In this document: positions 2,460 to 19,053 of the stretch, piece by piece
Layout of the letters: each line of letters starts with the position of its first letter
How positions within the stretch are numbered: position 1 is the first letter of the stretch
Assembly: GCA_048939995.1 (NCBI GenBank)
Contig: JBHLOY010000002.1
Coordinates: forward strand, 64,001-128,000
Source: Promethearchaeota archaeon
GTDB lineage: Archaea > Asgardarchaeota > Lokiarchaeia > Sigyniarchaeales > SOKP01
Direction of reading: 5' to 3'
Length of the DNA: 64,000 nt
Position numbers and translations under genes: made by a program
Notes under the pieces: generated by a model
What the model was told of the DNA's origin: nothing
The model's input: only the letters and a program-made list of their open reading frames with translations
Database searches by the model: none

Positions 2460-2559
2460 ATTAATTTCATTTTTATAGTATTATAAGATAATTATGACTT
2501 ATTAATGCTTACTAACTAGAAATGTCAAGTAATAAGAGTATATAAATCTTCATAAATCC

Positions 2560-2830: not shown

Positions 2831-2861
2831 ATTGTATAATGCTGTCTAATGCTGTTTTAAA

Positions 2862-3791: not shown

Positions 3792-4000
3792 ACATATTTA
3801 AAAATAAGAGAATATAAAAAATTGATCCTAATCGGGTAAGTTATAAATTATTCTAATCGAAGTTCTGATGACAAGTTAACTGAAGTAATTTTTATAAGTT
3901 TTCATTTCTATTTCTATTCAAAAACGGAGTAGGAATAAAAATCAAAAAAAATCATAGAAATCAATTAATAATCAGTAGTGTTTTATTAATATCTTTTGCT

Positions 4001-4636
4001 TTGTTGTTACCAGTCTTATATAATCTTTCAGAATTATTAAATTTAGGTAATTATAGTAAAACTGAAGATTACAATATTGATTTGGGCGCAGGAACAGGGG
4101 GTATAAATGCTGATTTTCTTTTGGGATTAACTTACGATGATAGATATAGAGGAACAATTACATTTAACGTGCATTCGACTGGTTCAGTTGGAACAATTGG
4201 AATTACATCTATTGATTATGATATTAAAGCTAATGGGCAAACAAAGGCTCACTATGATAATAATTTTAACCCTCCACGACTTTCATTCCAAAATACTCAT
4301 AATAATCTAAACCTTGATAAAGATGATGTGGTTACATGTGAAGGAAGTGCAATGGTTAGATTTTTGGTTGGAGGGATAGAACAAGATACTGTAATTTTCT
4401 TCGAGAATGATATAATAATTACGATTAGTTCTTTTGAAATAGAATATACATGGGATATAGTAGAAATTTGGCTCCAAATTTTTGATTATATTGCCATTTT
4501 CGCTTCAGTTATTTTCTTAGCAAGGACTATTAGAATAATTAAATTTGAAAAGGAGTATACTGAAGATATGAGGAAAGACGACGAAGAATTTTTTGAAAAA
4601 ATTCGAAAAAACATCGAGAAAGAAAAAACTCTCTAA
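4001..4636 (+). CDS. Membrane-anchored hypothetical protein (beta-rich extracellular domain, C-terminal TM); true start probably upstream at ATA 3935 or ATC 3941
   Basis: The frame is open upstream and encodes the basic-plus-hydrophobic signal-like segment IKIKKNHRNQLIISSVLLISFALLLP. C-terminal TM is IFDYIAIFASVIFLA. Confidence 0.65.
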   Translation: MLLPVLYNLSELLNLGNYSKTEDYNIDLGAGTGGINADFLLGLTYDDRYRGTITFNVHSTGSVGTIGITSIDYDIKANGQTKAHYDNNFNPPRLSFQNTHNNLNLDKDDVVTCEGSAMVRFLVGGIEQDTVIFFENDIIITISSFEIEYTWDIVEIWLQIFDYIAIFASVIFLARTIRIIKFEKEYTEDMRKDDEEFFEKIRKNIEKEKTL

Positions 4637-4677
4637 AAATCATAAAATATCTCCTTTTGATTTCTCTAAAATAAAAA

Positions 4678-5085
4678 TTAATAGCTATTTTCTAAATCTT
4701 TAATTAATTTCTTTAAAATTTCTATTACTCTTTTTTTATATGATAATTGTTCAGGATAATTATAACTAAATGTTTTCCAATGAGGTCGTTTATGTCCTAT
4801 TTTAAATTTCATACCCTCCATATCTGTCATATAAGAATTCGCATCTAATTTAGTAGCAATTTGATCTGCTATAATATACCAATGAAATTGAGTTCCAATA
4901 CTAGCTCCAGTGTTAATTGGTGCATTATTTACCCGACGTTTAATAGAATTAAATTTTATAGTCCATTGATCTGGAGTAACTTTAGTCTCTTCCCATTTTC
5001 CATCATTATAATTCCAATGATGAGTTCCCCCTACTTTCATACCTGTATAAATTTGATCATTATATTTTTTCATTGAATTATACAT
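4678..5085 (-). CDS. Conserved hypothetical protein (YTGMKVG...W...W...YHW-type family)
   Basis: 135 aa ORF, Trp/His-rich and plausibly coding. Function unknown. Confidence 0.7.
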   Translation of the reverse strand: MYNSMKKYNDQIYTGMKVGGTHHWNYNDGKWEETKVTPDQWTIKFNSIKRRVNNAPINTGASIGTQFHWYIIADQIATKLDANSYMTDMEGMKFKIGHKRPHWKTFSYNYPEQLSYKKRVIEILKKLIKDLENSY

Positions 5086-5212
5086 TTTTATACACTTGAT
5101 GAATTTAAAGTATAAATTATTCAGTTAAAATAGGCTTTAAAAGATTAATAGTGAGTAAATTTAGTAAAATTAACCAAAAAATTAAAAAAAAGAAAAAATG
5201 ATTATGAAAATT

Positions 5213-6220
5213 CTATAATTTCTTAATTATTAGCTCTGCCATTCGATTTGAGAAGCCCCATTCATTATCATACCAACTTAGGACAAATAGTTCATCTTCA
5301 ACGACCTTAGTCCATAATCCATTGAATATTGAGCTATGAGAATTACCTATAATATCACTGCTTACTATAGGATCATCAGTATACTCTAGAATACCCTTTA
5401 AATGACTGAAAGCAGCATCTTTCATCTTAGAATTAACTTCATCAGCGGTGCACCTATTTTCTACTATCACCTTTAGATCAACTACACTACCATCAAGTGT
5501 AGGTACTCTTACTGCTATACCATCTAATTTTCCTTTGAGCTCTGGAAAAACTAATCCAATTGCTTTAGCAGCTCCTGTAGATGTTGGGATCATATTTTGA
5601 GCAGCAGCTCTTCCACGGATCATTTTTTCAGGACCCCCTGTTCGTGCAATATCCGCGATAGTTTGATCGTTTGTATAGGAATGAATGGTGGTCATTAAAC
5701 CATATTTTATTTTAAAATTTTCGTGCAAAACTTTAACGACAGGTGCCAAACAGTTAGTTGTACAAGAGGCATTCGAGATTATCCTATGATCACTTGCAAT
5801 TTTATCATCATTGCATCCTAAAACTACAGTGATGTCAGGATTTGTTGCGGGGGCACTGATGAGTACTCTTTTAGCTCCAGCAGTTAAATGCTTTGATGCA
5901 CCATCTCTATCAGTAAAACGACCGGTTGATTCTACTGCAACGTCGACATTTTTACTGGCATGTGGTAAATTCGCAGGATCCCTCTCAGCAGTAATAGGTA
6001 TTTCTTTTCCATCAATCACAAGGGAACTATCTCTAGCTTCTACTTTACCCTTAAATCTTCCGAAAACCGAATCATATTTTAAAGCATAAGCTAAATATTT
6101 TGATTCAAAGAGGTCATTGATAGAAACAATATCAATATCATTCCAGAAATTGTCATATACGGCTCTAAAAAACAATCGACCAATTCTTCCAAAACCATTA
6201 ATAGCGACTCTTTTTGCCAT
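5213..6220 (-). CDS. gap: Glyceraldehyde-3-phosphate dehydrogenase, class I (bacterial/eukaryotic type)
   Basis: INGFGRIGR, ASCTTNCLAP catalytic Cys motif, IPTSTGAAKA, WYDNEWG. Confidence 0.96.
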   Translation of the reverse strand: MAKRVAINGFGRIGRLFFRAVYDNFWNDIDIVSINDLFESKYLAYALKYDSVFGRFKGKVEARDSSLVIDGKEIPITAERDPANLPHASKNVDVAVESTGRFTDRDGASKHLTAGAKRVLISAPATNPDITVVLGCNDDKIASDHRIISNASCTTNCLAPVVKVLHENFKIKYGLMTTIHSYTNDQTIADIARTGGPEKMIRGRAAAQNMIPTSTGAAKAIGLVFPELKGKLDGIAVRVPTLDGSVVDLKVIVENRCTADEVNSKMKDAAFSHLKGILEYTDDPIVSSDIIGNSHSSIFNGLWTKVVEDELFVLSWYDNEWGFSNRMAELIIKKL

Positions 6221-6394
6221 CATTAACACTTTTTAAAATTTTATTCTTTAAATAGTCAATCTAGTATAGATTTAGATAGTTTTTTAATTTTTTAGTTTTA
6301 GGTGGTTTCAACCTTTAAATTTAAAATATAAACTATAAAAACATTCTAACATAATTTTTATAAACATTGAAATCAAATAAGGAAATAAGGATTT

Positions 6395-7615
6395 ATGGTT
6401 GATATTGAAAAGATAATTCTTAATAAAATAGATGAGACAAAGGATGAATTAGTTCAATTTCTTCAAGAACTTGTTCAATACCATTCAGAGGTTCCACCGG
6501 GTAAATATCGAGAACTATCTAAATTTATTGCAACAAAAATGGAAAAATTTGGCATAAAAACCCAAGTAAAAAGAAATAATGTAATTGGGGAATTGGGAGC
6601 TGAAAAAGGCCCTACCTTGATATTTAATGCTCACTATGATACTGTTACTACTCATGATGGATGGACTAAAATCCCTCATTCTGGTGAATTAATTGGCAAC
6701 AAATTATATGGTCGAGGTTCTGCTGATGACAAATCATGCATAGCCGCTGAAATATTTGCTGCAAAAGCTCTTTTGGATATGAATGTTGATCTAAAAGGGA
6801 AGTTAATAGTTACTGCTGTTGTTAATGAGGAAATTGGAGGTATAGGAGGAGCTGAATATCTTGTTAATGAAGGCATAGTCAAAGGAGATGCTTGTTTATT
6901 AGGAGATGGACCAGCTGACTATCCAATAATATATCGTGGAGGGGTACTTCAAATTAGTTTTAAAACTAAAGGTATTCGACGTCATGCTATGGCTTACCCT
7001 GATACAATCCCTAAATATCGCAATGAATATTCTGGAATAAATGCAGTACATAGAATGATCCCTATCATGAATTTTCTCATGGATTTACAAGAAGAGTTTA
7101 ATAAACAAGAAACCAAGTATTCTGTTCCTCCTGATTTACCAAAAAAAGTAAGCAGTATTGAAATAACAAAAATGGAAGGAGGAAATGCAATCGATACAGT
7201 AGCAGATAGTTGTACTTTACATTGTATGATGAATTTTATACCTGAACAAGATATTAATCATATTCGGACAAGGATTTTTAATTTCATAGAAGAATTGAAA
7301 AAAAATGATGCAAATCTAGATATTTCGGTCCAAAATCCCGTCTCAATCCCACCAAAAATAGGAGATCCTAACTCTACTATAGCTAGAGTTGTTAAGAATG
7401 CTTTTAAAAAAGTCCATAGTGAAGAACGAGATTTTAAAAGTTTTATCCCAACTACAGATGCTCATCTCTTTCAAATGAAGGGAATTGAAACTATTATAAT
7501 CGGGACTCTGCGAGGAGATAATAACTACCACGCCCAAGATGAGTTTGTTTATATTGAGGATGTGATAAATGCCGCAAAAGTTTATGCTTTGACTGCTTTG
7601 AATTATCTTACATGA
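6395..7615 (+). CDS. M20 family metallopeptidase/deacylase (ArgE/DapE-like)
   Basis: NAHYDTV, GRGSADDK, NEE and HAQDE metal ligands. Confidence 0.9.
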   Translation: MVDIEKIILNKIDETKDELVQFLQELVQYHSEVPPGKYRELSKFIATKMEKFGIKTQVKRNNVIGELGAEKGPTLIFNAHYDTVTTHDGWTKIPHSGELIGNKLYGRGSADDKSCIAAEIFAAKALLDMNVDLKGKLIVTAVVNEEIGGIGGAEYLVNEGIVKGDACLLGDGPADYPIIYRGGVLQISFKTKGIRRHAMAYPDTIPKYRNEYSGINAVHRMIPIMNFLMDLQEEFNKQETKYSVPPDLPKKVSSIEITKMEGGNAIDTVADSCTLHCMMNFIPEQDINHIRTRIFNFIEELKKNDANLDISVQNPVSIPPKIGDPNSTIARVVKNAFKKVHSEERDFKSFIPTTDAHLFQMKGIETIIIGTLRGDNNYHAQDEFVYIEDVINAAKVYALTALNYLT

Positions 7616-7705
7616 CTATTTTAAAGATAATCGAAAAGGCATAACTACAAATTTTTAGAAATATAAACTAAATGGTAAAAAAAGTATGTAAAAAATAGAA
7701 TTTAT

Positions 7706-8467
7706 TTATGCTTCTTCTTCTTTCCCCATTAAACGCATGACCGCATCCGCAAGTTTGTTTTGACTGCGGCTCATGATCCCTTTTACCTTACCTTCTACAC
7801 CAGTCACTCGGAGCATGATTCCATTCCAAACTGAACTAGGTTCTCCTTTTACATTCTTAAATCGATCCCGATGAACTTCAACTTCGATATTTTCATATTT
7901 GTTTGATGCATCAGAACATTTGAAACATAGAATGCATTTATCTACATCGACTTTAACTTCTTTGCCTTCTCGAGACATTGCATCAACTGAACATTCTTCT
8001 GTAAATTGATCAATAATAGTTGTATCTTTTTCATTACAAGTAATTTTTATTGAACCTTCTACTACTTTTCGTACTTTTCTTCCATCATCTAACGTCCGAA
8101 CTTCTTCGTCAAATTCTGGAAGAGAACCATTTTCAACTAACAATATTTTGTTTTCTCCATTAACTAATAACTCTAATGTATATCCCGGGCAAATCCAACT
8201 GCAGCTACCGCACCAAATACATTTTTCTGTATCAACAACGATCTTTTTATTAGATTCTATTTTCATTTCCTCAGGGGTTCCAATAGCTGTCTTTTTCAAT
8301 GGTTCATCGTATATAGAAATAGTAACCGGACAAACACGATGGCAAAATCCGCACTCGATACATTTTGATTCATCATATTTTAAGATCATTTCATGGTTGA
8401 GCATCTTGTAAACATAATGGGTAATATTTTCATCTACTTGTATCGTTTTCTTAGCTGGTAATGAAAT
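7706..8467 (-). CDS. Polyferredoxin (4Fe-4S dicluster; FwdF/MvhB-like); start at ATG 8404 or ATT 8467
   Basis: CIECGFCHRVCP, CIWCGSCSWICP and CILCFKC motifs. The frame is open upstream to an SD-like GGATGTGA at 8482-8475. Confidence 0.8.
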   Translation of the reverse strand: MSLPAKKTIQVDENITHYVYKMLNHEMILKYDESKCIECGFCHRVCPVTISIYDEPLKKTAIGTPEEMKIESNKKIVVDTEKCIWCGSCSWICPGYTLELLVNGENKILLVENGSLPEFDEEVRTLDDGRKVRKVVEGSIKITCNEKDTTIIDQFTEECSVDAMSREGKEVKVDVDKCILCFKCSDASNKYENIEVEVHRDRFKNVKGEPSSVWNGIMLRVTGVEGKVKGIMSRSQNKLADAVMRLMGKEEEA

Positions 8468-8523
8468 AATAATTTCACATCCTTTTCTATTAATTTTTCT
8501 TTTTTTTTTAATTTAGTAATAAT

Positions 8524-9663
8524 TTATGTTCTTTCTAATTCCATTTGTTCAATTGCCTTACCAGATCTGAAAGGTATGTCTTCCAAATTTTCTCCTGCGG
8601 TGTATCCGAATTCGTCTTTAAATGCTTCATTTAATGACTGAAAGTATAGAGACAAGGGGAGGTGTTGAGGGCAGTTATTATCACAATTTCCACATTCTAC
8701 GCATCTATCTGCAACATGAGCAATGCGTGTCAATTGATAAGTCTCTTTATTTATAACTTTATCTTTTCTCTTTTTTTGTAATATGCAATCAACGCAATAA
8801 CAAACTGGACATCCACGAATACACATCCCACACATAGTACATGCTTGAAGTTTTGCGATTTTCTCTTCTTGGGGGAGTTTATCCCATTCTTCTAAATCTT
8901 TCGCCCTTTTAGTCAATGCGTTTTCCTTCAGTTCTTTAACTTTATTAATGTGAGCTTTCTTAATATCAGCTGGAATCGTTTTTTTTTCAATTTTAGATGT
9001 TTCAATAAGTTCAGCTCCTTTATCAGAATATGCTTTTAGAATAATCTCATCAGAGTCAATAGATATACCAAGATCACTTATACCTATATCAGCTACAACG
9101 GGGATTTTTCTAGTACAGCGTGAACAATTATCAGCGATATCTAAATCAACCTCTTTCGTTGTTCCATCTGATAATTTAAGAATTAAACCTTTTTCTCCAA
9201 TTTTTTCTTTAATAACTTGAGTAGGATCTATGTCCTTAAATTTTTTTAGTTCCCGAGAAGCATTTATAACCATTCCTCTATCTTCAAACGCGATGATAAA
9301 GAGATTCTCTAAATTAATTTGCTTAATCTTAGCCAGCTCTATTATAGCTCTGGTATCACATGGTCGAGCAATAAGCGCTACTTTCTCTTGGAGTGCTCCA
9401 TTTACAGATTTATGCAAAAATTTAGCAGCGGAATCAGTCCTAGCATACCCATAAGAAATAAGATTTGTTAATGGGAAACTCTTAATATCTTCCGGTTTTT
9501 CATAGATGTTTGGAGATACTGTGAAACGATCTTCCTGATTAGTTTTTTTATCAATCCTAGTTTCAGCACCAATGATTTTGTTGACAACTTTCTCCTTTAG
9601 TAAACTAACTAGTATTTTTGGAAAGTCTTCAATTTTTATTAGATATTCTGCTATTGCATCCAT
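8524..9663 (-). CDS. FdhB/FrhB-family Fe-S (flavo)protein, F420 dehydrogenase beta-subunit-like
   Basis: IARPCD, NCSRC, CTMCGMCIRGCPVCYCVDC and RCVECGNCDNNCP motifs typical of FdhB. Confidence 0.85.
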   Translation of the reverse strand: MDAIAEYLIKIEDFPKILVSLLKEKVVNKIIGAETRIDKKTNQEDRFTVSPNIYEKPEDIKSFPLTNLISYGYARTDSAAKFLHKSVNGALQEKVALIARPCDTRAIIELAKIKQINLENLFIIAFEDRGMVINASRELKKFKDIDPTQVIKEKIGEKGLILKLSDGTTKEVDLDIADNCSRCTRKIPVVADIGISDLGISIDSDEIILKAYSDKGAELIETSKIEKKTIPADIKKAHINKVKELKENALTKRAKDLEEWDKLPQEEKIAKLQACTMCGMCIRGCPVCYCVDCILQKKRKDKVINKETYQLTRIAHVADRCVECGNCDNNCPQHLPLSLYFQSLNEAFKDEFGYTAGENLEDIPFRSGKAIEQMELERT

Positions 9664-9781
9664 AGTTTTTCCAACTCAAAATTAATTGTACAAGATTTTA
9701 ATATTACTATATTCCAGTGAAATTTTTTTCTATTTTTATTTAATTTTAAACTAAAAATTACAATTTTATATGTGTTTTATG

Positions 9782-9840
9782 GTGCTCCCATTTCCTCAGC
9801 TAAGTTCTCATTTTTATAACTCAGCGTCATTAGCTAACAC
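9782..9840 (-). ncRNA. SECIS element, eukaryote-type, in the 3' UTR of mvhD
   Basis: Minus strand reads GUGUU-AGCUA-AUGAC-GCUGAGUU-[AUAAAAAUGAG]-AACUUAGC-UGAG-GAAAUGGG-AGCAC. It has the AUGAN/NGAN core, a fully paired 8-bp helix II, an A-rich apical loop and a closing helix I, and begins 8 nt after the stop. Confidence 0.9.
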
Positions 9841-9848
9841 ATTATTTT

Positions 9849-10310
9849 TTAAGCCTTTGCTTTTTCTTTGGCTTTGGCTTTCTCTTGCGCGCCACCTTTT
9901 ACACGTAAAGGACTAGGTCCAAGTTCACGAATAACTTTATCAAACTCAATAGCCGCATTTTGAAACTTCTGACCCTCAGCTGCACTACAATATCCAAACA
10001 TTATTCGCTTTTCATTAAGCCCTAATGTCTTCACAACAGCTTTTATGTACTCAAATTCGCGAAATGCAAAATAATTGCCAGTTTCATAATCACACTCATG
10101 AGGATATCATCCAATTATCATTATACCGTCTGCTCCTCTTCCAAATGCCCTAGCAATAAGATCGCTATCAACCCGTCCTGTACATGGTACCAATATCGTT
10201 CTTAAAGAGGGTGGATATTGTGCTCTAATTGTTCCAGCCATATCGGCTGAACCATAACCTCATTTCCAACAAAGGAAGGCTATTATCTTTATATCTTCTT
10301 CTTCTGCCAT
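9849..10310 (-). CDS. mvhD: Hydrogenase iron-sulfur subunit MvhD/VhuD, selenoprotein (Sec17, Sec68), 153 aa
   Basis: ATG at 10310 after SD GAGGTGG. Reads MAEEEDIKIIAFLCWK-U-GYGSADMAG...VPCTGRVD...GADGIMIIG-U-YPHECDYETGN. TGAs at 10260-10262 and 10107-10109 occupy conserved Cys positions. The track shows only the last 61 aa. Confidence 0.95.
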
Positions 10311-10324
10311 TTTAATCCACCTCT

Positions 10325-12301
10325 CTACTCCTGGATTGGAAGTAATTCATCAATTAATGCCATGTATTGGTCATCTCTAAAGTAAGTTAATTCAATAGCT
10401 TTAGAAGGACATGTCGCTGCGCATGTTCCGCATCCTCTGCAGCGAATTAAATCTACAACGATATTCCCCTTTTCATTTATTGAAATTGCAGTATATGGAC
10501 AAGCTTCAATGCATTTATAACATTTTGCACATCTTTCATCTGAGGGAGTCGCTCGAATTAATTCCATAGTATATTCACCTTTACCCATTGGAATTGCGGC
10601 TGCTGATGCTGCACCTCTTGCTTGACTTACAGTCTTATCTATCTCTTTTTGTCCTTGGGCAGACCCACAAATGAAAATTCCAGGTACTTTTGTACTAATT
10701 GGATCAAGACGGGCATGATATTCTTTTAAAAACCCATCAGGACTTCTTTCCATATTTAATACTCTAGCAATTTCAATTGTTCCTTTTGACGGAAGTGAGG
10801 CAGGGGAAAGAACAACCATATGAAATTCCCCAGTCACTACAGTGTCAGTGCCTACAGGTTCCCACTGGGCTAGTAAATTCTTGGTCAATGGGTCCTCTTC
10901 GATTTTTCCAACAAGACCTTTGACAAAAATTATTCCTGCATCTCGCGATCTTCTGTAGTATTCTTCATAATCTTTACCTGCACATCTCATATCAATATAA
11001 GTGCATAGGATTTCTGAATCGGGATATTCAGATTTAATCAGCTTTGAATTTTTAAGAGATAAATTACAACAAACGACAGAACACCATGGATTTTTACTCA
11101 CGTCACGAGATCCAACGCAATTTATGAAAAGAATCTTAGTAGGACGCTTGCCATCAGAAGGACGTTTTAAATGACCGTAAGTTGGACCGTTAGGAGCTAA
11201 TATCCGCTCCAACTCAATCTGGTTAACAACATTTTCATATATGCCATAACCATAATCATCTCCTTCATAAAGATCCCAACCAGTAGCTACGACTATAGTT
11301 CCAATCTCAAGATCTAAAATTTCTTCTTGTTGAGAAAAATCAATTGCATCTTCTTCACAAGAATCGACACAGCTAAAACATTCAACACAAGACTCTCTAG
11401 CAATATCATATACGGCAGGTACGGCCTGCGCAAATGCGATGTCAATACATTTTCTGGCTGAAAGATTTTCATCGAAATAATTAGGTACATAAATGGGACA
11501 AACATCAACACAAGCTCCGCACCCAGTGCATTTAGTTTCAAGGACATAACGTTGATTTCTTTTCACTTTTACTTTGAAGTTTCCAATATATCCATCTACT
11601 TTAATTACTTCACTGTAGGTTAATATCTCGATGTTGGGATGCCTATTCGATTCTAACATTTTTGGACCGAGAATTCAGATTGAACAGTCATCTGTGGGAA
11701 ACGTACGATCTAATTGGGACATTCTCCCTCCAATTGTTGTATTCTTCTCAACTAAGTATACTTTACATCCTGCATTACCTAAATCTATAGCTGTTGATAG
11801 CCCAGCGATTCCTCCACCAACTACTAAAGCTGTCTTTTTTACAGGTACAGTCATAGTGGGAACGTCTTCTAATAATCTTGCTCTCGCCACCCCTGCCTTT
11901 ATTAATTCAATAGCTTTTTGGAGTGCTCTCTCACGAACTTCAGGTGATTGGTGAACAAAACTACAATGTTCTCTGATATTTACAAACTCTAAATATCTTG
12001 GTGGTAAACCTGCTTCAGAAAGTATTGCATGGAAAACTGGTTGATGAGTTTTAGGTGTACAAGCGGCTACAACAATACGTTCAAGCTTGCTTTCTTCTAT
12101 TTGTTCTTTAATATAAGTGGATCCTCCTTCAGTACACATACTTAGGTACTCAAACGCTTTTACTCCTTCTATTTTATTGAGTTCTTCTACGATTTTTGGG
12201 ATATCCAAGATACCAGCGATATTAATACCTCAGCGGCACACAAAAACGCCAACAATAGACTTTTTAGCTTCATTATTTTCTTTGGTCTGGTTTCCAGACA
12301 A
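10325..12301 (-). CDS. hdrA: Heterodisulfide reductase subunit A, selenoprotein (Sec24, Sec209), 658 aa
   Basis: Track ORFs 11675..12208 and 10325..11659 are one frame, joined by TGA 11675-11677 in FPTDDCSI-U-ILGPKM. Upstream, TGA 12230-12232 lies in VGVFVCR-U-GINIAG (canonical CxCG). TTG start at 12301 follows GGTG. Contains GGGIAG FAD motif and several CxxCxxC clusters. Confidence 0.95.
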
Positions 12302-12578: not shown

Positions 12579-13136
12579 TTAACCTTGAGATTCAGCAATT
12601 ATGTCTCCAAATAATCGCTTTACAGCTTCAATACGAGTTTCTTCTCCTATTTGCTCAACATTTTTGAGTGAAATGGCTTCTTTTGGGCATACTGCTATGC
12701 ACTGAGGCTCTCTCACCCCGACTTCGGGATCAATAAATTCTTCTTTCATATTTTCACATAAATCGCAAACAAGAGCTTTCTGAGAAGAAATATGAAGAGA
12801 AATAACTCCGAAATCGCAAGCACGAATACAAAATCCGCATCCATTACACTTATCCTCCTCTACAATAATGGAACCTGTTTCTGGATCCTGCTCCAACGCT
12901 TTCTCCGGACAGCTACGAACGCAAGGAGAGTCTTCACATTTCTGGCATGCTAGCGCAATGTTAAAAATAGGTTCTATTCTTACTCGATGAATTCTAGTAT
13001 TAATGGGATTAAATTCTGCGTCATGCACAAAACTACACACGCTTTCACACGTCTCGCAGCCCGTACATAAGTTTGGATCTACGATGATAAATTGGTGCAT
13101 AACTCCTCCCCGCTTTTTAGTCTTAGCCTTTGACAT
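12579..13136 (-). CDS. 4x[4Fe-4S] electron-transfer subunit (DmsB/HydN/AorA-like) of the AOR
   Basis: CTGCETCESVC, CQKCEDSPCVRSCP, CNGCGFCIRAC, CDLC...CIAVCP. Lies 1 nt downstream of aor. Confidence 0.9.
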   Translation of the reverse strand: MSKAKTKKRGGVMHQFIIVDPNLCTGCETCESVCSFVHDAEFNPINTRIHRVRIEPIFNIALACQKCEDSPCVRSCPEKALEQDPETGSIIVEEDKCNGCGFCIRACDFGVISLHISSQKALVCDLCENMKEEFIDPEVGVREPQCIAVCPKEAISLKNVEQIGEETRIEAVKRLFGDIIAESQG

Positions 13137-13137
13137 G

Positions 13138-15078
13138 TTACCTCTTACCTCCTTTGGTTGCTGGTTTTAATTTTCCAATCACGAAATCTAACCCTAATTT
13201 TTTCAATGTTTCATCAGTAGGGATTCCTGTCTCTTTATCCCAACCCCGTGCTTCATAATATCCGCTTAATATTTTTTGATATCCATCTTCATTTAATGTA
13301 TACCCTTTGGCAGGACCTTTTGTATGGGCTTCCTTGAAAAATCGATCTGGAGGACGATCATCAGCTCGTGTCCAACCCTCTCTAATATTAAAGCATTTAG
13401 AAAGGTTTAAAATAGCTTCTCCTCGAAGCAAAATTGATTCCTCAGTATGTGGAATTCCAGTGACTAGTTCATATACTTTTGCCATTTCTGCATCAGATTC
13501 ATAGATCCCTCGTGTAAATTTACAGATTATATATGAATCAATAAGCGCATAAACATCCTCAAGTTTTTTGATTGCTTTTCCCCGTTCGAGTGGTTTATCA
13601 TATCCAAATCTATCAAATGTACCTTTTGCATCAAGCCCATAAGCTCCATTGCGTAAATGGCACGCTCCTCGAATAGATACACTCATTCCCACCGCAAATG
13701 AAGTCATGCCATGGACATCAAAGGCAGGGAGTTCTAGCCCTTTAACATGCATAGCATAGTAGCTCGCATTTTTTCTACCCATTTCTTCTAATCGTTTACC
13801 AGCTTCTCTAACACCATCACCAAAAATTTCTCCTGCAAAACCCTTTCCAAGGATCATTTCTTCTGTAAACCTTACAAGATTCACAGTCGAGCCAAAAGGT
13901 AGCTTATATCCTAAATCTTTTTCTGTGATCACACCTTCCTCGAAGCATTCACACGCCATTGCTGCCGTTGCACCACCAGAAATCGCATCGATTCCCAGAT
14001 CATCACACAAGGTTACACATTTAAATACACTTGGCCAATCAGAATTACCACAGGCAGTCCCAAAACCGTAACATAATTCTTGATCTATACTTGCATAAGT
14101 ATTTGGCCAATTTGGATGGGATTTTGGTACTTTTGTAATGTGGTCACATGCAATTGAGCATTGAGAGCAAGCCACTTTTTTGACAACCCAATCTTGATTA
14201 AGTGTATCTCCCGAAAAAGTTCCATCGTCAATCTTATCCCATGTACCTTCTTTGTGGTTGAATATTGGCATCATACCTAGTTTATTATAACTAGTTAAAC
14301 CAGAAGGTGTGCCCAGATCTCTATATTTAGCTGTAGCAGGACCATTTGCAACTTTGATTAATTTTTTTGCTAGTTTATAAAATTCAGCAGGATTTGCAAC
14401 TTTGGTTCCCTTAGTACCTCTAAAACAGACAGCTTTTAAATTTTTAGAGCCCATAACTGCCCCCATACCAGTACGACCAGCTTGCCTATTGCGATCATTG
14501 GTTAAACATGCCATATGGCTCATACGTTCTCCAGCTTGACCAATAGCCATCACTGCAAGTCTATGATCTTGAAATTCTTTCCTTAGAAGCTCCTCGGTTT
14601 CCCAACAACCCTTGCCCCAAACTGTATTTTTGCATGGTACTAAATAATAGTCATCATCATCCACAACCATATAAACAGGTTCAGGAGATTTACCTTTGAA
14701 CACGATCATGTTGATTCCTGCTCTACGGGCTTGAGCTCCTACAGAACCTGATGAGATTGCCATACCAAACATTCCTGTTAATGGTGATTTAGCAAAAACA
14801 CCGTATTTAGAACTAGTTGGTAATATGGTCGTTGGAAAAGGTCCGTGACAATAAACAAAGACATTATCTGGGCTAAGAGGATCAATACCTGGCTTAAGTT
14901 CATCCCAAAGTACCTTTGCACCAAATCCATAACCCCCAATCCAATCTCTACAGAATTCTCTAGATAGTTCCGATTTTTCAATTTTACCATTGGTAAGATC
15001 AACATCAAGCCTTGTTTGGGTATACCCTTTTACATCATCGGGTACAGCTACTTCCTTAGCTTTACTCATGTTTTTCAC
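13138..15078 (-). CDS. aor: Aldehyde:ferredoxin oxidoreductase (tungsten-pterin AOR family)
   Basis: KSPLTG, AGRTGMGAVMGSKNLKA, CSQCSIAC, CDDLGIDAIS, RGACHL, YYEARGWD. Confidence 0.93.
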   Translation of the reverse strand: MKNMSKAKEVAVPDDVKGYTQTRLDVDLTNGKIEKSELSREFCRDWIGGYGFGAKVLWDELKPGIDPLSPDNVFVYCHGPFPTTILPTSSKYGVFAKSPLTGMFGMAISSGSVGAQARRAGINMIVFKGKSPEPVYMVVDDDDYYLVPCKNTVWGKGCWETEELLRKEFQDHRLAVMAIGQAGERMSHMACLTNDRNRQAGRTGMGAVMGSKNLKAVCFRGTKGTKVANPAEFYKLAKKLIKVANGPATAKYRDLGTPSGLTSYNKLGMMPIFNHKEGTWDKIDDGTFSGDTLNQDWVVKKVACSQCSIACDHITKVPKSHPNWPNTYASIDQELCYGFGTACGNSDWPSVFKCVTLCDDLGIDAISGGATAAMACECFEEGVITEKDLGYKLPFGSTVNLVRFTEEMILGKGFAGEIFGDGVREAGKRLEEMGRKNASYYAMHVKGLELPAFDVHGMTSFAVGMSVSIRGACHLRNGAYGLDAKGTFDRFGYDKPLERGKAIKKLEDVYALIDSYIICKFTRGIYESDAEMAKVYELVTGIPHTEESILLRGEAILNLSKCFNIREGWTRADDRPPDRFFKEAHTKGPAKGYTLNEDGYQKILSGYYEARGWDKETGIPTDETLKKLGLDFVIGKLKPATKGGKR

Positions 15079-15443: not shown

Positions 15444-16340
15444 TTGCCCTATAAGATTTTAGGAAAAAAGGAGCTAGGTAACAGCGGATTGTTATATGAA
15501 ATGGTTTTAGATACTCCTTTAATTGCTAAAAAAGCATTTCCGGGAAATTTTATTCTCTTACGGATTAATGAAAATGGAGAACGCTTTCCATTAACAATAG
15601 CGGATTATGATGAAACAAAAGGAACAATAACAATTGTCTTTCAAATTGCTGGAAAAAGTACCAAGTTACTTTCACATCAAAATGTGGGAGATGAAATTCT
15701 TGATGTGGTTGGACCGTTAGGTAACAGAATTCATGCACAAAAATATAAATTTCCTGTTATAATCATTGGAGGTGGTGTTGGGATCGCTGAATGTTATCCT
15801 CAAGCAAAAGAATTAAAGAAAGCAGGAAATAAAATTATTTCTATTATTGGTGCAAGGAATACAGGATTACTTTTTTGGAGAGAAAAGATACGATCTGTAA
15901 GTGATCGCGTAATAATATGTACTGATGATGGAACTGAAGGGATTAAAGGCGTTGTAACCCAACCACTAAAAGAAATACTTTCAAGAGAAAGGATAAGCCT
16001 AGTAATCGCCATCGGTCCCTTAGTTATGATGAAGTATGTCGCGCGAGCTACTGATGGTTCTGGAGATTTGCCGAAGGTGAAAACTTCTGTTTCATTAAAT
16101 ACTATTATGATAGATGGAACAGGAATGTGTGGGGGATGTCGTTTTTCAACCTTAGAAGGAGATATTTATTTTGCATGCGTAGATGGACCCGATGTGGATG
16201 CACACGTAGTAGATTTTGATAATCTTATAAAGCGTTCCATGAGATTTGTTGAATTAGAAAAGCAAGCATTAGACAATTATGATCATGAATGTAAAGCATT
16301 AGGAAAATTGCAAAGTGAGGGACCTCAAAATGGAAAATAA
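15444..16340 (+). CDS. nfnA: NfnA/SudB: NADH-dependent reduced ferredoxin:NADP+ oxidoreductase small subunit
   Basis: GERFPLTIAD, GPLG, GGGVG and the [2Fe-2S] motif DGTGMCGGCR...CVDGP. Confidence 0.9.
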   Translation: MPYKILGKKELGNSGLLYEMVLDTPLIAKKAFPGNFILLRINENGERFPLTIADYDETKGTITIVFQIAGKSTKLLSHQNVGDEILDVVGPLGNRIHAQKYKFPVIIIGGGVGIAECYPQAKELKKAGNKIISIIGARNTGLLFWREKIRSVSDRVIICTDDGTEGIKGVVTQPLKEILSRERISLVIAIGPLVMMKYVARATDGSGDLPKVKTSVSLNTIMIDGTGMCGGCRFSTLEGDIYFACVDGPDVDAHVVDFDNLIKRSMRFVELEKQALDNYDHECKALGKLQSEGPQNGK

Positions 16341-19053
16341 TTTCCCCTTAATTGAAATCCTCCTTAATAACAAAAATAAGATATTAGAAGTTGGTAAATA
16401 TAATGAAAAAGAATTTAAGCAACTTATAGATTCTGTAACAGCCGTTGAAACAGAAAGGCAAGAAGTTTTGAATAAAATTAAGGAATTAGGATCGATCGAC
16501 GTACCTAAGTTACAAAGCGAATTAGGACAATCTGAAGAGAGTATCTTATGTAAAATCGAATCTTTAAGAGAGTTAGGTTTATTAGGTTTCATTGGAGAAA
16601 AGCCAAGATTTTTTGCGAAATATATTGAAAACTATGAAATAAAGGGAATATTCCCTACCACTGATTTGATTAAAGATAGCAATCTTTGCTGTGGATGTGG
16701 GCTTTGCGTTTCAGTTTGTCCTGTTAATGCAATTGATTACGTAGAAGATAATTTTAAATTGAATAAGGATTTATGTATTAAATGTGGGTTATGTTATTCC
16801 GCATGTCCTAGATCCTTTTTTCCAAAACCTTTGGAAAAACTTCCAGATAATGATGATACTAATGTTAAGTTTATAGAATCGTTCCATTATTTTCGAGACA
16901 TTTTTACAGCTCAAACTACAGATAAAAGAATAAGGGAAGTAGCTCAAGACGGTGGTATAGTCACAACCTTGCTCAAAACTGCTTTTAGAGAAGGATTAGT
17001 AGATGGTTCCTTTGCTGTAACAACAGGAGAATTGCCGTTAAAACCTTTACCTATTCTAATCGAAAGTGAGGAGGAGCTTTTAAAAACGGCTGGAACTAAA
17101 TATACAAATGTTCCATTACTTAAAATCTTTCGCGATGCTAAGGATCGTGGCAAAATTGCAGTTGTAGGTACACCATGCATAATGAAAGCTTTAAGAAAGC
17201 TCTCACTTTGTCCTATTAATAAACCTTTTTATGAAAATATTGTTTTAAAAATTGGATTATTTTGCATGGAATCCTTTGATTATGAAAAAATTGTAGAATT
17301 ACTCAAAAATGAATTTAATGTATATCCATCAGATGTAAAAAAGATGGATATAGATAAGGGAAGCTTTATCATTTATAACCGGGAGAGTATTCCTTCCAAA
17401 ATACCAATTAAAAGAATTAAGAAATATGGTAGATTTGGTTGCTTTTTCTGTGAAGATCTGACTTCAAATTATGCTGATATCTCCGTAGGATCTATTGGTT
17501 CAGAGCCTGGTTGGTCAACAGTAATAGTTCGGACAATGAAAGGCGCGGAATTTTTTAAAAAGGTTTTAGATTTAAATATGGCCATCAAGAAAGATATAAG
17601 AATAAATGATCATAACTTTATGGAATTAAGTAGAATAGCTAACTCTAAAATAAAGAACTATATCGAACAACATAGGGTAAAGATGATAGAGCAAGATCCT
17701 AAAGAGAGAATAAATAATTTTGAGGAAGTACCTTATGGATTAACTGATGAAATGATGGAGCAAGAAGTACAAAGGTGCTTGCAATGCGGTTTACCTTTAT
17801 GCGTTACTGGATGTCCTGTTAATATTAGGATTCCAGAATTTATCAAACTACTTAAGGAAGGAAAAAAAATACAAGCTCTTTATAAAATTAAATCTAGTAA
17901 CCTTCTTCCTGCTATTTGTGGCAGAGTATGTCCACAAGAAACGCAATGTGAAGAGACTTGTATGCTAAATTCTCTAGAAGAACCTATCGCGATCGGGCAT
18001 TTAGAAAGATATATTGCTGATTGGGAGAGGAAAAATAAATTAAAGGAATGCCCCGAGTGCTCCCCTCCCAATGGTATTAAGGTTGCGGTTATTGGATCCG
18101 GACCCGCTGGATTAACCTGTGCAGGAGAATTGGCAATGAGAGGATATGATGTTACCATATTTGAAGCATTTCATGCGGGAGGTGGAGTATTAACCTACGG
18201 AATTCCCGAATTTAGGTTACCAAAAGAGGTAGTAAAAGAAGAAATTGAAACTCTTAAAATGCTTAACGTAAAAATTAACTATAATGCAATAATTGGAAAA
18301 ATTCTAACAATTGATGATCTAAAAGAACAAGGATATAAAGCTTTCTTTATAGGTGTTGGAGCTGGGTTGCCATCTTTCATTAAAGTAGCTGGATTGAATT
18401 TAAATGGTGTTTTAACAGCTAATGAGTTTCTCACAAGATCGAACTTGATGAAAGCTTATAGATTCCCTGAATATGATACCCCCATAAAAGTTGGAAAAGT
18501 TGTAACAGTTATAGGAGGAGGAAATGTTGCTTTGGATTCAGCTAGAACTGCCCTAAGGTTAGGTGCTGAAAACGTAACTATTGTGTACAGAAGGTCAGAA
18601 GAGGAAATGCCTGCAAGAAAGGAAGAATATCACCATGCAATAGAAGAAGGGATAAAATTTGAATTCCTGACAAATCCAGTAAGGTTTATTGGTGATGAAA
18701 ATGATAATGTAAAGCAAATGGAAGTAATAAGAATGAAACTTGGAGAACCTGATCAATCTGGGCGTAGAAGCCCCTTACCTATTGAAAATTCTGAGTATCT
18801 CATTGATACTGATACTATTATTATTGCCATTGGAGCAAGAGCAAACCCTACCCTAACAAAATCAATTCCAGAATTGCAATTAAATAAGTGGGGATATATA
18901 GAAACTGATGAAGAGGGACAAACTAATTTAGAAGGAATTTTTGCAGGTGGAGATATTGTTACAGGTACTGCTACAGTTATCTCCGCAATGGGGACTGGTA
19001 AGAAGGCTGCAGCAACAATTGATAAATATCTGCAACAAAAAAGTGAAAAATAA
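16330..19053 (+). CDS. Fusion of an N-terminal helical domain, a 2x[4Fe-4S] FrhB-type F420-binding domain and NfnB/SudA (GltD-like)
   Basis: FrhB motifs CCGCGLCVSVCP, AQDGGIVT, GTPC, GLFCME and DISVGSIGSEPGWSTVIVRT are followed by NfnB motifs RCLQC...CVTGCP, CGRVCPQETQCE, GSGPAGL and GGGNVALD. One continuous frame; ATG at 16330 overlaps the nfnA end. Confidence 0.88.
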   Translation: MENNFPLIEILLNNKNKILEVGKYNEKEFKQLIDSVTAVETERQEVLNKIKELGSIDVPKLQSELGQSEESILCKIESLRELGLLGFIGEKPRFFAKYIENYEIKGIFPTTDLIKDSNLCCGCGLCVSVCPVNAIDYVEDNFKLNKDLCIKCGLCYSACPRSFFPKPLEKLPDNDDTNVKFIESFHYFRDIFTAQTTDKRIREVAQDGGIVTTLLKTAFREGLVDGSFAVTTGELPLKPLPILIESEEELLKTAGTKYTNVPLLKIFRDAKDRGKIAVVGTPCIMKALRKLSLCPINKPFYENIVLKIGLFCMESFDYEKIVELLKNEFNVYPSDVKKMDIDKGSFIIYNRESIPSKIPIKRIKKYGRFGCFFCEDLTSNYADISVGSIGSEPGWSTVIVRTMKGAEFFKKVLDLNMAIKKDIRINDHNFMELSRIANSKIKNYIEQHRVKMIEQDPKERINNFEEVPYGLTDEMMEQEVQRCLQCGLPLCVTGCPVNIRIPEFIKLLKEGKKIQALYKIKSSNLLPAICGRVCPQETQCEETCMLNSLEEPIAIGHLERYIADWERKNKLKECPECSPPNGIKVAVIGSGPAGLTCAGELAMRGYDVTIFEAFHAGGGVLTYGIPEFRLPKEVVKEEIETLKMLNVKINYNAIIGKILTIDDLKEQGYKAFFIGVGAGLPSFIKVAGLNLNGVLTANEFLTRSNLMKAYRFPEYDTPIKVGKVVTVIGGGNVALDSARTALRLGAENVTIVYRRSEEEMPARKEEYHHAIEEGIKFEFLTNPVRFIGDENDNVKQMEVIRMKLGEPDQSGRRSPLPIENSEYLIDTDTIIIAIGARANPTLTKSIPELQLNKWGYIETDEEGQTNLEGIFAGGDIVTGTATVISAMGTGKKAAATIDKYLQQKSEK

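What the first reader, a model, noticed from the sequence alone, without database searches (positions are those of the whole stretch)
15444..19053. NfnAB transhydrogenase with an F420-binding FrhB module fused to NfnB
Seen: nfnA is followed by a ~907-aa ORF with a complete 2x[4Fe-4S]-FrhB domain fused N-terminally to a complete NfnB/SudA. Known: NfnAB bifurcates electrons among NADPH, NAD+ and ferredoxin, and FrhB domains bind FAD and react with coenzyme F420. Inference: the ferredoxin exit of NfnB may be hard-wired to an F420 site, giving an NADPH/NADH/F420 (with or without ferredoxin) transhydrogenase. I know of no characterised enzyme with this architecture. The first ~100 aa look like a separate small helical or winged-helix-like domain.
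Basis: partly seen in the sequence, partly recalled or inferred. Interest (0 to 1): 0.8.

Follow-up and report, generated by a model that had tools for sequence, protein, structure and literature searches.

The report
Nfn enzyme with fused F420 module
One family of uncultured Lokiarchaeia (Asgard archaea) has fused a coenzyme-F420-reacting iron-sulfur flavoprotein module onto the ferredoxin-facing end of the electron-splitting NADPH/NADH enzyme Nfn, which probably links three hydride carriers in one enzyme, although it has never been assayed and databases call it glutamate synthase.

Summary
nfnA (15444-16340) overlaps by 11 nt a 907-aa gene (true start ATG 16330; stop 19053). That gene encodes a helical N-domain, a 2x[4Fe-4S] ferredoxin domain, a complete FrhB domain and a complete NfnB.

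It is not a misassembly. Full-length copies occur in about 58 species genomes and about 95 protein clusters, always directly after nfnA.

The fusion is narrow. Among 400 Asgard genomes it occurs in one family only. Among 1.84 billion cluster representatives, a single 50%-identity cluster spans the junction.

Trees of both halves indicate one fusion event. The FrhB module came from the FrhB subunit of Hdr-type gene clusters. The module was later lost in some members of the same genus.

All Fe-S ligands and the FAD and F420-site motifs of solved, F420-active relatives (FrhB, Fsr, ACDS-zeta, FwdI) are kept. The genome encodes cofG, cofH, cofD, cofE and Mtd, and no Fno.

Best reading (confidence about 0.55): an Nfn-type bifurcating enzyme whose low-potential branch is wired to F420. 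This is a new variant of a known kind and is unassayed. This scan flagged the same fusion earlier in other genomes.

The parts
15444..16340 (+). nfnA (NfnS-type small subunit: FAD, NAD(H) site, [2Fe-2S]); TTG start
   Evidence: NF004862 at 3e-102. PDB 5JCA_S at 2.5e-82 and 4YLF_A at 2.7e-65, with the DGTGMCGxCR...FACVDGP motif kept. It is the only nfnA in the genome.
16330..19053 (+). Fused gene, 907 aa: N-domain, 2x[4Fe-4S] ferredoxin domain, FrhB, NfnB. Overlaps the nfnA stop by 11 nt.
   Evidence: AF2 model: pLDDT 80, pTM 0.70.
16330..16659 (+). N-terminal all-helical domain (residues 1 to about 110). No cofactor ligands. Probably a structural or docking domain of the FrhB module.
   Evidence: No Pfam hit. 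AF2 on the domain alone: pLDDT 90, pTM 0.80. No significant fold match. The 494-499-aa Hdr-cluster paralogues share it.
16669..16839 (+). Ferredoxin domain, 2x[4Fe-4S] (Cys 120/123/126/130 and 149/152/155/159, 907-aa numbering)
   Evidence: Fer4 hits. All eight Cys invariant in 42 sequences. Aligns with the ferredoxin domain of 8RIU_B and 8RJA_E.
16885..17664 (+). FrhB-type F420:FAD:[4Fe-4S] oxidoreductase domain (about residues 186-445)
   Evidence: FrhB_N and FrhB_C hits. PDB 6QGR_B at 1.4e-50, 3ZFS_C at 1e-46, 8RJA_E, 8RIU_B. Cys283/312/371/374, Q206-D-G-G, K257-Y258 and G387-S-I-G-S are conserved.
17707..18039 (+). NfnB N-terminal domain with two [4Fe-4S] clusters (Fer4_20)
   Evidence: Pfam at 8e-39. 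Cys pattern identical to T. maritima NfnB. Invariant in A1.
18079..18999 (+). NfnB FAD (bifurcating b-FAD) and NADP(H)-binding domains
   Evidence: Pyr_redox_2 at 2.5e-39. 4YLF_B at 2.4e-166 and 5JCA_L at 2.4e-155. Foldseek TM 0.87.

Best explanation
nfnA and the fused gene encode an Nfn-type flavin-based electron-bifurcating NAD(P)(H) oxidoreductase. A ferredoxin-plus-FrhB 'F420 reductase' module has been fused onto the N-terminus of the large subunit, which is the ferredoxin-facing two-cluster domain.

Proposed electron path: NADP(H) reacts at the b-FAD of the NfnB part. The high-potential branch runs through the NfnA [2Fe-2S] cluster and a-FAD to NAD(H). The low-potential branch runs through the two NfnB [4Fe-4S] clusters into the two clusters of the fused ferredoxin domain, then the FrhB [4Fe-4S] and FrhB FAD, which exchanges hydride with coenzyme F420.

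Predicted net reaction: 2 NADPH + NAD+ + F420 <-> 2 NADP+ + NADH + F420H2, with free ferredoxin replaced by F420 or joined by it.

Likely role: it couples the NADP(H), NAD(H) and F420 pools in an amino-acid-fermenting Lokiarchaeon. That organism has an H4MPT-type C1 pathway with F420-dependent Mtd, and lacks Fno and an F420-reducing hydrogenase.

Shown here: the architecture, the cofactor ligands, operon conservation, the evolutionary origin and the F420 capacity of the host.

Inferred: the electron path, the stoichiometry, the direction, and that F420 is the substrate.
For: Both halves are complete.
- The NfnB part matches T. maritima NfnB at 2.4e-166 (53-56% identity to solved NfnB/NfnL chains by Foldseek), with all cluster Cys and the YRRSxxEMPAR NADPH region.
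- NfnA is NfnI-like with the [2Fe-2S] motif.
- The module's best solved relatives are all F420-reactive: FrhB 6QGR/3ZFS, Fsr 7NPA, and ACDS-zeta 8RIU and FwdI 8RJA. 8RIU and 8RJA have the same ferredoxin+FrhB layout. They were shown biochemically to divert electrons from a ferredoxin site to F420 (PMC11493965).

The features named for FrhB (PMC3591093) are kept.
- Cys104/134/192/195 correspond to C283/C312/C371/C374.
- The QDGG helix start, K75-Y76 (K257-Y258) and S209-V210 (S388-I389) are present.
- In the IGKGK turn the first Lys is kept in 36 of 42 sequences and the second position is R or K in 36 of 42.

The host can make and use F420. cofG, cofH, cofD and cofE all score over their curated cut-offs and Mtd is present. 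There is no Fno and no true FrhA. This is the only nfnA/nfnB pair in the genome.

nfnA directly precedes the fusion in every locus examined.

Gene context ties the fusion to NADP(H) dehydrogenases and H4MPT C1 metabolism. An MtdA/B-like (Mpt_N) gene lies within 3 kb of 14 fused loci and of none of about 35 unfused nfnAB loci. GDH or IDH is adjacent in three other loci.

AF2 gives a compact model (pTM 0.70).
Against: - There is no assay and no cofactor analysis. No model coordinates were available, so cluster-to-cluster distances between the fused ferredoxin domain and the distal NfnB cluster are unknown.
- F420 (about -340 mV) is not a low-potential acceptor. A bifurcating core is therefore not thermodynamically needed for NADPH -> F420 + NAD+, which makes the physiological logic uncertain.
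- The own-genome copy has Ser where most family members have Arg or Lys at the second basic position of the proposed F420-phosphate turn.
- Close relatives lost the module and kept nfnAB, so it is dispensable.
- Presence of the fusion does not track F420 biosynthesis: cofH is found in 51 of 58 fused-bearing genomes against 116 of 135 overall. It also does not track absence of an Fno-like gene.
- FrhB-family proteins with other partners exist, for example FdhB acting as a relay in Fdh-Hdr complexes.
Confidence: 0.55

Rival explanations
1. Four-way hub. Free ferredoxin still docks on the exposed clusters of the fused ferredoxin domain or on NfnB. The FrhB module then adds an FpoF-like ferredoxin:F420 oxidoreductase side path to an otherwise normal NfnAB, so the enzyme equilibrates Fd, F420, NADH and NADPH.
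For: The NfnAB core is fully canonical. Relatives that lost the module keep nfnAB, so the core works with ferredoxin. A ferredoxin-producing AOR plus ferredoxin gene pair is divergently transcribed from nfnA here and in G262 and G265.
Against: In the solved precedents (8RIU, 8RJA, Fsr) the ferredoxin domain of the module is buried against its partner as a fixed wire, not as a ferredoxin docking site. Nothing here tests ferredoxin access.
Confidence: 0.2
2. Relay or docking module. The FrhB domain does not turn over free F420. Like FdhB in Fdh-Hdr supercomplexes, it serves as a flavin/Fe-S relay, and its N-terminal helical domain docks NfnAB onto an HdrA-type complex.
For: The nearest stand-alone relatives of the module (43-48% identity in the FrhB domain, same N-domain) are subunits encoded inside hdrA-mvhD-hdrD-like clusters. 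An hdrA-mvhD-FdhB-like cluster lies about 3 kb upstream in the window.
Against: The F420-pocket features are conserved across the fused family, although in several positions only nearly. Relay-type FdhB chains are much more distant (E 1e-16 to 1e-21) than F420-reactive FrhB, Fsr, zeta and FwdI (E 1e-40 to 1e-50). The hdrA cluster is on the other strand and is not conserved next to all fused loci.
Confidence: 0.15
3. It is what the databases call it: an NADPH-dependent glutamate synthase (GltD/'gltA'-type) subunit, here F420-linked like the proposed FGltS of methanogens.
For: TIGR01316 'gltA' scores 590 bits, over its cut-off of 472. Sources name homologues 'NADPH-dependent glutamate synthase'.
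Against: The C-terminal half matches solved NfnB/NfnL far better than GltD: 4YLF_B at 2.4e-166 (53-56% identity to NfnB/NfnL chains by Foldseek) against 6S6S_G at 3e-86 and 30-34% for GltD chains. The conserved partner is nfnA, with translational overlap. No GltB-type synthase subunit is among the neighbours.
Confidence: 0.03

Closest known systems
[quoted passage not shown]
   Same: Two-gene operon. The small subunit has FAD and an Asp/Cys3 [2Fe-2S] cluster. The large-subunit core has two [4Fe-4S] clusters, b-FAD and an NADPH site. E-values are 2.4e-166 and 2.5e-82, and Foldseek TM is 0.87.
   Different: The large subunit carries about 445 extra N-terminal residues (helical domain, 2x[4Fe-4S], FrhB with FAD and [4Fe-4S]). 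The complex would hold 3 FAD, 5 [4Fe-4S] and 1 [2Fe-2S]. The third substrate is predicted to be F420 rather than, or in addition to, ferredoxin.
ACDS zeta subunit and FwdI of Ca. Ethanoperedens thermophilum (PDB 8RIU_B, 8RJA_E; PMC11493965)
   Same: Same ferredoxin(2x[4Fe-4S]) + FrhB 'F420 reductase' module (E about 3e-50). Same design logic: the module occupies the ferredoxin exit of a ferredoxin-dependent enzyme and rewires it to F420, as shown there by assay and by crystal structures.
   Different: There the module is a separate subunit bound to CODH or Fwd. Here it is covalently fused to NfnB, has an extra N-terminal helical domain, and is attached to a bifurcating flavoenzyme.
Fsr (F420-dependent sulfite reductase) and other Fsr-N homologues (FpoF/FqoF, putative FGltS, aFsr)
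   Same: An N-terminal ferredoxin+FrhB F420H2-oxidase domain is fused or attached to a catalytic partner (PDB 7NPA at 6e-44; PMC10229431; PMC3448663).
   Different: The partner is a siroheme sulfite reductase, complex-I-like Fpo or a glutamate synthase, not an Nfn.
Other NfnB-module chimeras: NfnABC/StnABC (9BOV, 9N5U, 8OH5) and ANME-1 HdrA-NfnB insertions (PMC9012536)
   Same: They show that the NfnB bifurcating module is recombined with other redox modules. The same genome carries an HdrA/NfnB-like/MvhD giant protein and an FrhB with an inserted NfnB-like domain.
   Different: None of these joins a complete F420-type FrhB module to the N-terminus of a canonical NfnB partnered with NfnA.
Fno (F420H2:NADP+ oxidoreductase)
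   Same: Fno would carry out the same pool-linking job, F420 <-> NADP(H).
   Different: Fno is an unrelated small Rossmann enzyme with direct hydride transfer, no Fe-S clusters, no NAD and no bifurcation. It is absent from this genome.

Membership tests
NfnAB (NfnSL) family | Small subunit with FAD/NAD(H) domains and an Asp+3Cys [2Fe-2S] cluster, encoded next to the large subunit | tested here: met
   NF004862 at 3e-102. Alignment to 5JCA_S and 4YLF_A keeps DGTGMCGxCR...FACVDGP. Adjacent in all 13 loci examined.
NfnAB (NfnSL) family | Large subunit with two [4Fe-4S] clusters (Fer4_20), b-FAD and an NADPH-binding domain | tested here: met
   Pfam Fer4_20 and Pyr_redox_2. 4YLF_B at 2.4e-166 over residues 8-460 of the chain, with all cluster Cys aligned. 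Cys483/486/491/495/534/540/544 invariant and Cys530 in at least 90% of sequences.
NfnAB (NfnSL) family | Large subunit is a stand-alone protein of about 470 aa whose distal cluster faces free ferredoxin | tested here: not met
   The protein is 907 aa with a 445-aa N-terminal extension. Unfused orthologues of 467-491 aa exist in relatives.
NfnAB (NfnSL) family | Catalyses NADH-dependent reduced ferredoxin:NADP+ oxidoreduction by flavin-based bifurcation | not testable with these tools
   This needs an enzyme assay.
FrhB / Fsr-N type F420 oxidoreductase modules | FrhB_FdhB_N + FrhB_FdhB_C fold with four Cys ligating one [4Fe-4S] cluster | tested here: met
   Pfam at 1e-22 and 7e-43. C283/C312/C371/C374 align to FrhB Cys104/134/192/195 and are invariant.
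FrhB / Fsr-N type F420 oxidoreductase modules | FAD-site motifs (QDGG helix start; Lys-Tyr loop) | tested here: met
   Q206 and Y258 are invariant. The rest of Q206-D-G-G and K257 are kept in 86-98% of 42 sequences.
FrhB / Fsr-N type F420 oxidoreductase modules | F420-pocket features (Ser-Val loop; I-G-K-G-K turn with basic residues) | tested here: met
   G387-S388-I389 are invariant. K343 is kept in 36 of 42 sequences. The second basic position is R or K in 36 of 42, but Ser in this genome's copy. The assayed FwdI also lacks it.
FrhB / Fsr-N type F420 oxidoreductase modules | N-terminal 2x[4Fe-4S] ferredoxin domain as the wire to the partner (Fsr-N / zeta / FwdI layout) | tested here: met
   Eight invariant Cys. 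Collinear alignment with 8RIU_B residues 17-314.
FrhB / Fsr-N type F420 oxidoreductase modules | Host makes F420 | tested here: met
   cofG, cofH, cofD and cofE score over their curated cut-offs. F420-dependent Mtd is present. This is gene presence only; the cofactor was not measured.
FrhB / Fsr-N type F420 oxidoreductase modules | Measured F420/F420H2 turnover | not testable with these tools
   This needs an enzyme assay.
Glutamate synthase small subunit (GltD) | Partnered with a GltB-type synthase subunit | tested here: not met
   Neighbours are nfnA, AOR, ferredoxins and an SNF2 helicase. The partner in all loci is nfnA. The genome-wide GltB complement was not searched.
Winged-helix (wHTH) domains, for residues 1-110 | Three-helix HTH core with a beta wing; significant fold match | tested here: inconclusive
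   The model is all-helical with no strands. Foldseek gives no hit at E <= 0.001. VIA Z of 5.1-5.5 over residues 37-89 to AsnC/Lrp, Zalpha, ROK and DeoR HTH cores is within noise for helical models.

The most novel reading that the evidence does not exclude
This is the first Nfn-type bifurcating enzyme that uses coenzyme F420 as its third substrate. It would be a ferredoxin-independent NADPH/NADH/F420 'three-hydride-carrier' transhydrogenase, invented once in one Lokiarchaeial family by capturing the F420 subunit of an Hdr complex. It would serve as the missing F420-reducing or F420-oxidising link of the Asgard H4MPT Wood-Ljungdahl pathway.
Probability: 0.4. Interest if true: 0.75.

Novelty: new variant of a known kind. 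Interest (0 to 1): 0.62.

Why it matters
Nfn is the textbook flavin-based electron-bifurcating enzyme, and all characterised versions use ferredoxin as the low-potential partner. A natural version wired to F420 would add a new substrate class to bifurcating transhydrogenases.

It would also give a testable case of how the potential of the low-potential branch can be retuned.

It would explain how Lokiarchaeia connect F420 with NAD(P)H. These archaea make F420 and have F420-dependent Mtd, but often have no Frh hydrogenase and no canonical Fno. The connection matters for models of Asgard syntrophy and acetogenesis.

Finally, it corrects a systematic mis-annotation of these proteins as 'NADPH-dependent glutamate synthase'.

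Tried and rejected
- Misassembly: rejected by conservation across about 58 genomes and about 95 clusters.
- Wider distribution: a junction-centred search of 1.84 billion representatives found only one 50%-identity cluster spanning FrhB to Fer4_20. Among 400 Asgard genomes, only the window's own family has full-length copies.
- 'The fusion replaces Fno': not supported across the family. No genome has an Fno over the cut-off, but a sub-threshold Fno-like gene of about 215 aa co-occurs with the fusion in genus g12.
- 'The fusion tracks F420 biosynthesis': not discriminating. cofH is near-universal in the family, and 7 fused-bearing genomes lack a hit, most of them incomplete.
- N-domain identity: Pfam at E <= 10, Foldseek against the PDB and VIA-wide gave nothing significant.
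- Literature: searches for NfnB+FrhB, Lokiarchaeota+Nfn+F420, Asgard+FrhB and Asgard+NfnAB found no description of this fusion. The 2021 F420 review never mentions Nfn.
- Cluster distances: not obtainable, because the structure tool returns no coordinates.
- Glutamate-synthase reading: rejected (see rival explanations).
Full report
WHAT IS THERE

The window is AT-rich (about 31% GC). It is contig C17:64001-128000 of a 3.75-Mb, 98%-complete genome. Source names on homologous proteins place them in Lokiarchaeota/Promethearchaeota, that is, Asgard archaea.

On the + strand a 298-aa ORF (15444-16340) is followed by a 912-aa ORF (16315-19053). Alignment with 41 homologues shows the second gene starts at the ATG at 16330. 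That gives 907 aa and an 11-nt overlap with the stop of the first gene. All residue numbers below use the 907-aa numbering unless stated.

The first protein is an NfnA/NfnS:
- NF004862 at 3e-102.
- P. furiosus NfnI small subunit at 2.5e-82 and T. maritima NfnA at 2.7e-65, with the Asp/Cys3 [2Fe-2S] motif intact.

The second protein has, in order (Pfam coordinates, 912-aa numbering):
- about 115 residues with no Pfam match (residues 1-115);
- two ferredoxin CxxCxxCxxxC motifs (119-167);
- FrhB_FdhB_N (196-271, 1e-22) and FrhB_FdhB_C (280-419, 7e-43);
- Fer4_20 (465-575, 8e-39);
- Pyr_redox_2 (589-895, 2.5e-39).

The C-terminal half matches T. maritima NfnB at 2.4e-166 and P. furiosus NfnI-L at 2.4e-155 over its whole length. 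It matches glutamate synthase GltD far less well (3e-86). Foldseek on the model agrees: TM 0.87 and 53-56% identity to NfnB/NfnL chains.

IS THE FUSION REAL?

Yes.
- A word-indexed search returned about 95 clusters of 900-935 aa with the same Pfam set at 57-88% identity. They come from JGI, ENA, NCBI and Logan assemblies. Where named, they are 'NADPH-dependent glutamate synthase' of Lokiarchaeota or Promethearchaeota (one Hermodarchaeota label).
- A six-frame search of 400 Asgard species genomes found uninterrupted full-length matches (query 1-904) in about 58 genomes, some with two copies.
- In all 13 loci I extracted, nfnA lies directly upstream of the fused or unfused nfnB.

HOW WIDE IS IT?

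It is narrow.
- In one search every full-length match lies in the window's own family (f1, 134 species).
- Other families have a plain nfnA-nfnB pair.
- A junction-centred HMMER scan (residues 190-600 in 912-aa numbering) of 1.84 billion 50%-identity representatives found exactly one representative matched across the junction (P0031, 906 aa). All other hits covered either the FrhB part or the NfnB part.

ORIGIN

- Trees of the NfnB part put 96 of 99 fused sequences (FastTree) and 33 of 34 (IQ-TREE) in one strongly supported clade (96* and 100*). The clade sits inside the family's nfnB diversity.
- Seven unfused NfnBs, all from the window's own genus, are nested within that clade. An AU test rejects a tree that keeps the fused sequences together without them (p = 0.0006; the test was post hoc).
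- Two of these unfused proteins begin with a degenerate copy of the last FrhB helix and linker (KKKIEEDGKSS..SKSKLK versus consensus KKxIxEDSKSF..AKSKxK).
- The history is therefore one gain followed by at least one or two losses of the module.
- The FrhB parts of fused proteins also form a single 100* clade. Its sister group (support 83, inside a 97* clade) consists of stand-alone proteins of 480-520 aa with the same N-domain + ferredoxin + FrhB layout.
- In this genome and in a public MAG, those proteins are encoded inside hdrA(Sec)-...-FrhB-FrhB-hdrD-hdrA-mvhD clusters.
- The module was thus copied from the F420-type subunit of an Hdr-like bifurcating complex and joined to NfnB.

DOES THE FrhB MODULE LOOK F420-COMPETENT?

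Its best solved relatives are all F420-reactive proteins:
- FrhB of M. barkeri (1.4e-50) and M. marburgensis (1e-46);
- Fsr (6e-44);
- ACDS-zeta (8RIU_B, 3e-50, collinear from the ferredoxin domain onward) and FwdI (8RJA_E) of Ca. Ethanoperedens.

Relay-type FdhB chains are far weaker matches (1e-16 to 1e-21).

The features named for FrhB by Mills et al. (PMC3591093) map as follows:
- Cys104/134/192/195 correspond to C283/C312/C371/C374, invariant in 42 sequences.
- The QDGG helix start corresponds to Q206-D-G-G.
- K75-Y76 corresponds to K257-Y258.
- S209-V210 corresponds to S388-I389.
- The IGKGK turn corresponds to I-D-K-G-S here. K343 is kept in 36 of 42 sequences, and the last position is R or K in 36 of 42. 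The biochemically active FwdI also lacks the last basic residue.

The eight ferredoxin-domain Cys are invariant.

CAN THE HOST MAKE AND USE F420?

- cofG, cofH, cofD and cofE are present over their curated cut-offs.
- F420-dependent Mtd is present.
- There is no Fno and no true FrhA. Only weak Mer-like hits were found.
- This is the only nfnA in the genome, and there is no unfused NfnAB.
- The literature agrees that Lokiarchaeota encode complete F420 biosynthesis. It lists no Nfn-type F420 enzyme (PMC8498797).

STRUCTURE

- AF2 on the whole protein gives pLDDT 80 and pTM 0.70, a compact multidomain model. No coordinates are returned, so cluster distances could not be measured.
- The N-terminal 117 residues fold confidently on their own (pLDDT 90, pTM 0.80) into seven helices, including one 28-residue helix.
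- Foldseek finds no PDB match at E <= 0.001.
- VIA-wide gives at best Z 5.8. Residues 37-89 overlay HTH cores of AsnC/Lrp, Zalpha, ROK and DeoR at Z 5.1-5.5, which is noise level for helical models.
- Conserved positions in the N-domain are mostly hydrophobic and include no Cys. It is most likely a structural or docking element of the module.

GENE CONTEXT

In the window:
- nfnA is divergently transcribed from an AOR-ferredoxin pair. That arrangement is conserved in two congeners.
- Further upstream lies an hdrA(Sec)-mvhD-FdhB-like cluster.

In other members of the fused family:
- A gene with the Mpt_N domain (MtdA/B-type NAD(P)-dependent methylene-H4MPT dehydrogenase) lies within 3 kb of 14 fused loci. 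These belong to at least three sub-clades.
- It lies next to none of about 35 unfused nfnAB loci (coordinates; Pfam).
- These loci are phylogenetically clustered, so they represent a few events, not 14 independent ones.
- Glutamate dehydrogenase (two loci) and an isocitrate/isopropylmalate-type dehydrogenase (one locus) are adjacent elsewhere.

Several of the recurrent neighbours are thus NAD(P)(H)-linked dehydrogenases, and one ties the enzyme to H4MPT-bound C1 units. F420 and NADP(H) meet at exactly that step.

MECHANISM (INFERRED)

By analogy with NfnAB and with the zeta/FwdI/Fsr modules:
- NADP(H) reacts at b-FAD.
- One branch goes through the NfnA [2Fe-2S] cluster and a-FAD to NAD(H).
- The other branch goes through the two NfnB clusters, the two clusters of the fused ferredoxin domain and the FrhB cluster to the FrhB FAD, and from there to F420.
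- The expected cofactor load is 3 FAD, 5 [4Fe-4S] and 1 [2Fe-2S].

With textbook potentials (F420 about -340 mV; NADPH in vivo more negative than NADH), the favourable direction is NADPH -> NAD+ + F420. The reverse, NADPH formation from NADH + F420H2, lacks the driving force that reduced ferredoxin provides.

This is also the main conceptual weakness. A bifurcating core is not obviously needed for that chemistry. A hub that still accepts ferredoxin, or a docking/relay role towards Hdr-type complexes, therefore remain live alternatives.

COMPARISON WITH THE KNOWN

- The core is a bona fide NfnAB, but the stand-alone-large-subunit feature is not met.
- The module is a bona fide Fsr-N/zeta/FwdI-type F420 oxidoreductase module by sequence.
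- The design principle, an F420 module replacing ferredoxin at the exit of a ferredoxin-dependent enzyme, was shown experimentally in 2024 for CODH and Fwd (PMC11493965).
- NfnB modules are known in other chimeras: NfnABC/StnABC and ANME-1 HdrA-NfnB.
- I found no paper describing FrhB-NfnB.
- Hence the classification as a new variant of a known kind.

This scan had already flagged the same fusion in several other genomes, with follow-up reports reaching a similar reading.
- the single origin from an Hdr-cluster subunit;
- the secondary losses, with a sequence relic;
- the one-cluster junction count;
- the absence of Fno in this genome;
- the Mpt_N association.

VERDICT

- Observation: confirmed.
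- Interpretation: partly supported.
- Function: unassayed.
- Confidence in F420-coupled Nfn chemistry: about 0.55.

Noticed in passing
window 8524-12301 (-): An hdrA gene split by in-frame stops (ORFs 10325-11659 and 11675-12208; other notes read these as Sec codons). It lies close to a 379-aa FrhB_C + C-terminal Fer4 (FdhB-like) protein at 8524-9663. Downstream of the AOR (13138-15078) is a 185-aa polyferredoxin (12579-13136).
   Followed up: partly
window 12579-15078 (-) against nfnA; L009 4272-6771; L014 6518-9011: The AOR + 185-aa ferredoxin pair is divergently transcribed from nfnA. The same arrangement is seen in two congeners (G262, G265).
   Followed up: partly
own genome C38:130256-132724 (L021:6257-8725): A second FrhB/NfnB-type chimera in the same genome, 822 aa. 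FrhB_N (75-146) is followed by an inserted Fer4_20 + Pyr_redox_2 block (194-603), then the rest of FrhB_C (659-738).
   Followed up: partly
own genome C17:300790-305736 (L022:4791-9737): A 1648-aa giant protein: an NfnB-like block (Fer4_20 + Pyr_redox_2, 44% identity to the fused NfnB part) embedded in HdrA-like FAD domains, with a C-terminal MvhD (FlpD) domain. It resembles the HdrA-NfnB insertions reported for ANME-1.
   Followed up: partly
L012 (G264:C85) 1-7696: In one congener the operon is a NuoF-like protein (Complex1_51K), then a 1102-aa FdhA-like (Fer2_4, NADH-G, molybdopterin)-NfnA fusion, then FrhB-NfnB (59% identity). This is an even larger modular Nfn variant.
   Followed up: partly
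L010 (G175:C211) 3361-8871: Tandem duplication of the fused gene (906 and 913 aa) behind a single nfnA. Several other genomes carry two fused paralogues on different contigs (G265, G240, G209, G226).
   Followed up: partly
L005 2355-5117; L010 9898-12654; L065 77-1951: A protein of about 920 aa (Fer4 + NfnB-like Fer4_20/Pyr_redox_2 + C-terminal HdrB-type CCG domain) is encoded next to nfnA in several relatives, both fused and unfused.
   Followed up: no
L013 1754-2749; L067 1919-2914; L066 1721-3385; L065 2065-3735: Mpt_N-domain (MtdA/B-like) genes of 331 aa or 554-571 aa lie directly beside nfnA-frhB/nfnB in 14 genomes. They are preceded by conserved unknown ORFs of about 208 aa and 241 aa with no Pfam hit. 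The own-genome homologue is elsewhere (C13:237618-237851).
   Followed up: partly
L038 (G057:C205, 2.2-kb contig): A genome of a different Asgard family (f16) carries an unfused NfnB 72% identical to the query, nested among f1 sequences in the tree. This is probably binning contamination or a recent transfer.
   Followed up: no
own genome C19:139382-146935 (L020): A cluster encoding an HdrA-like protein (1004 aa), MvhD, two ferredoxin-type proteins, a PyrK/NfnA-like protein (279 aa) and a ferredoxin-FrhB protein (371 aa). Together with the loci above, at least nine proteins carrying FrhB-family domains are encoded in this genome.
   Followed up: no
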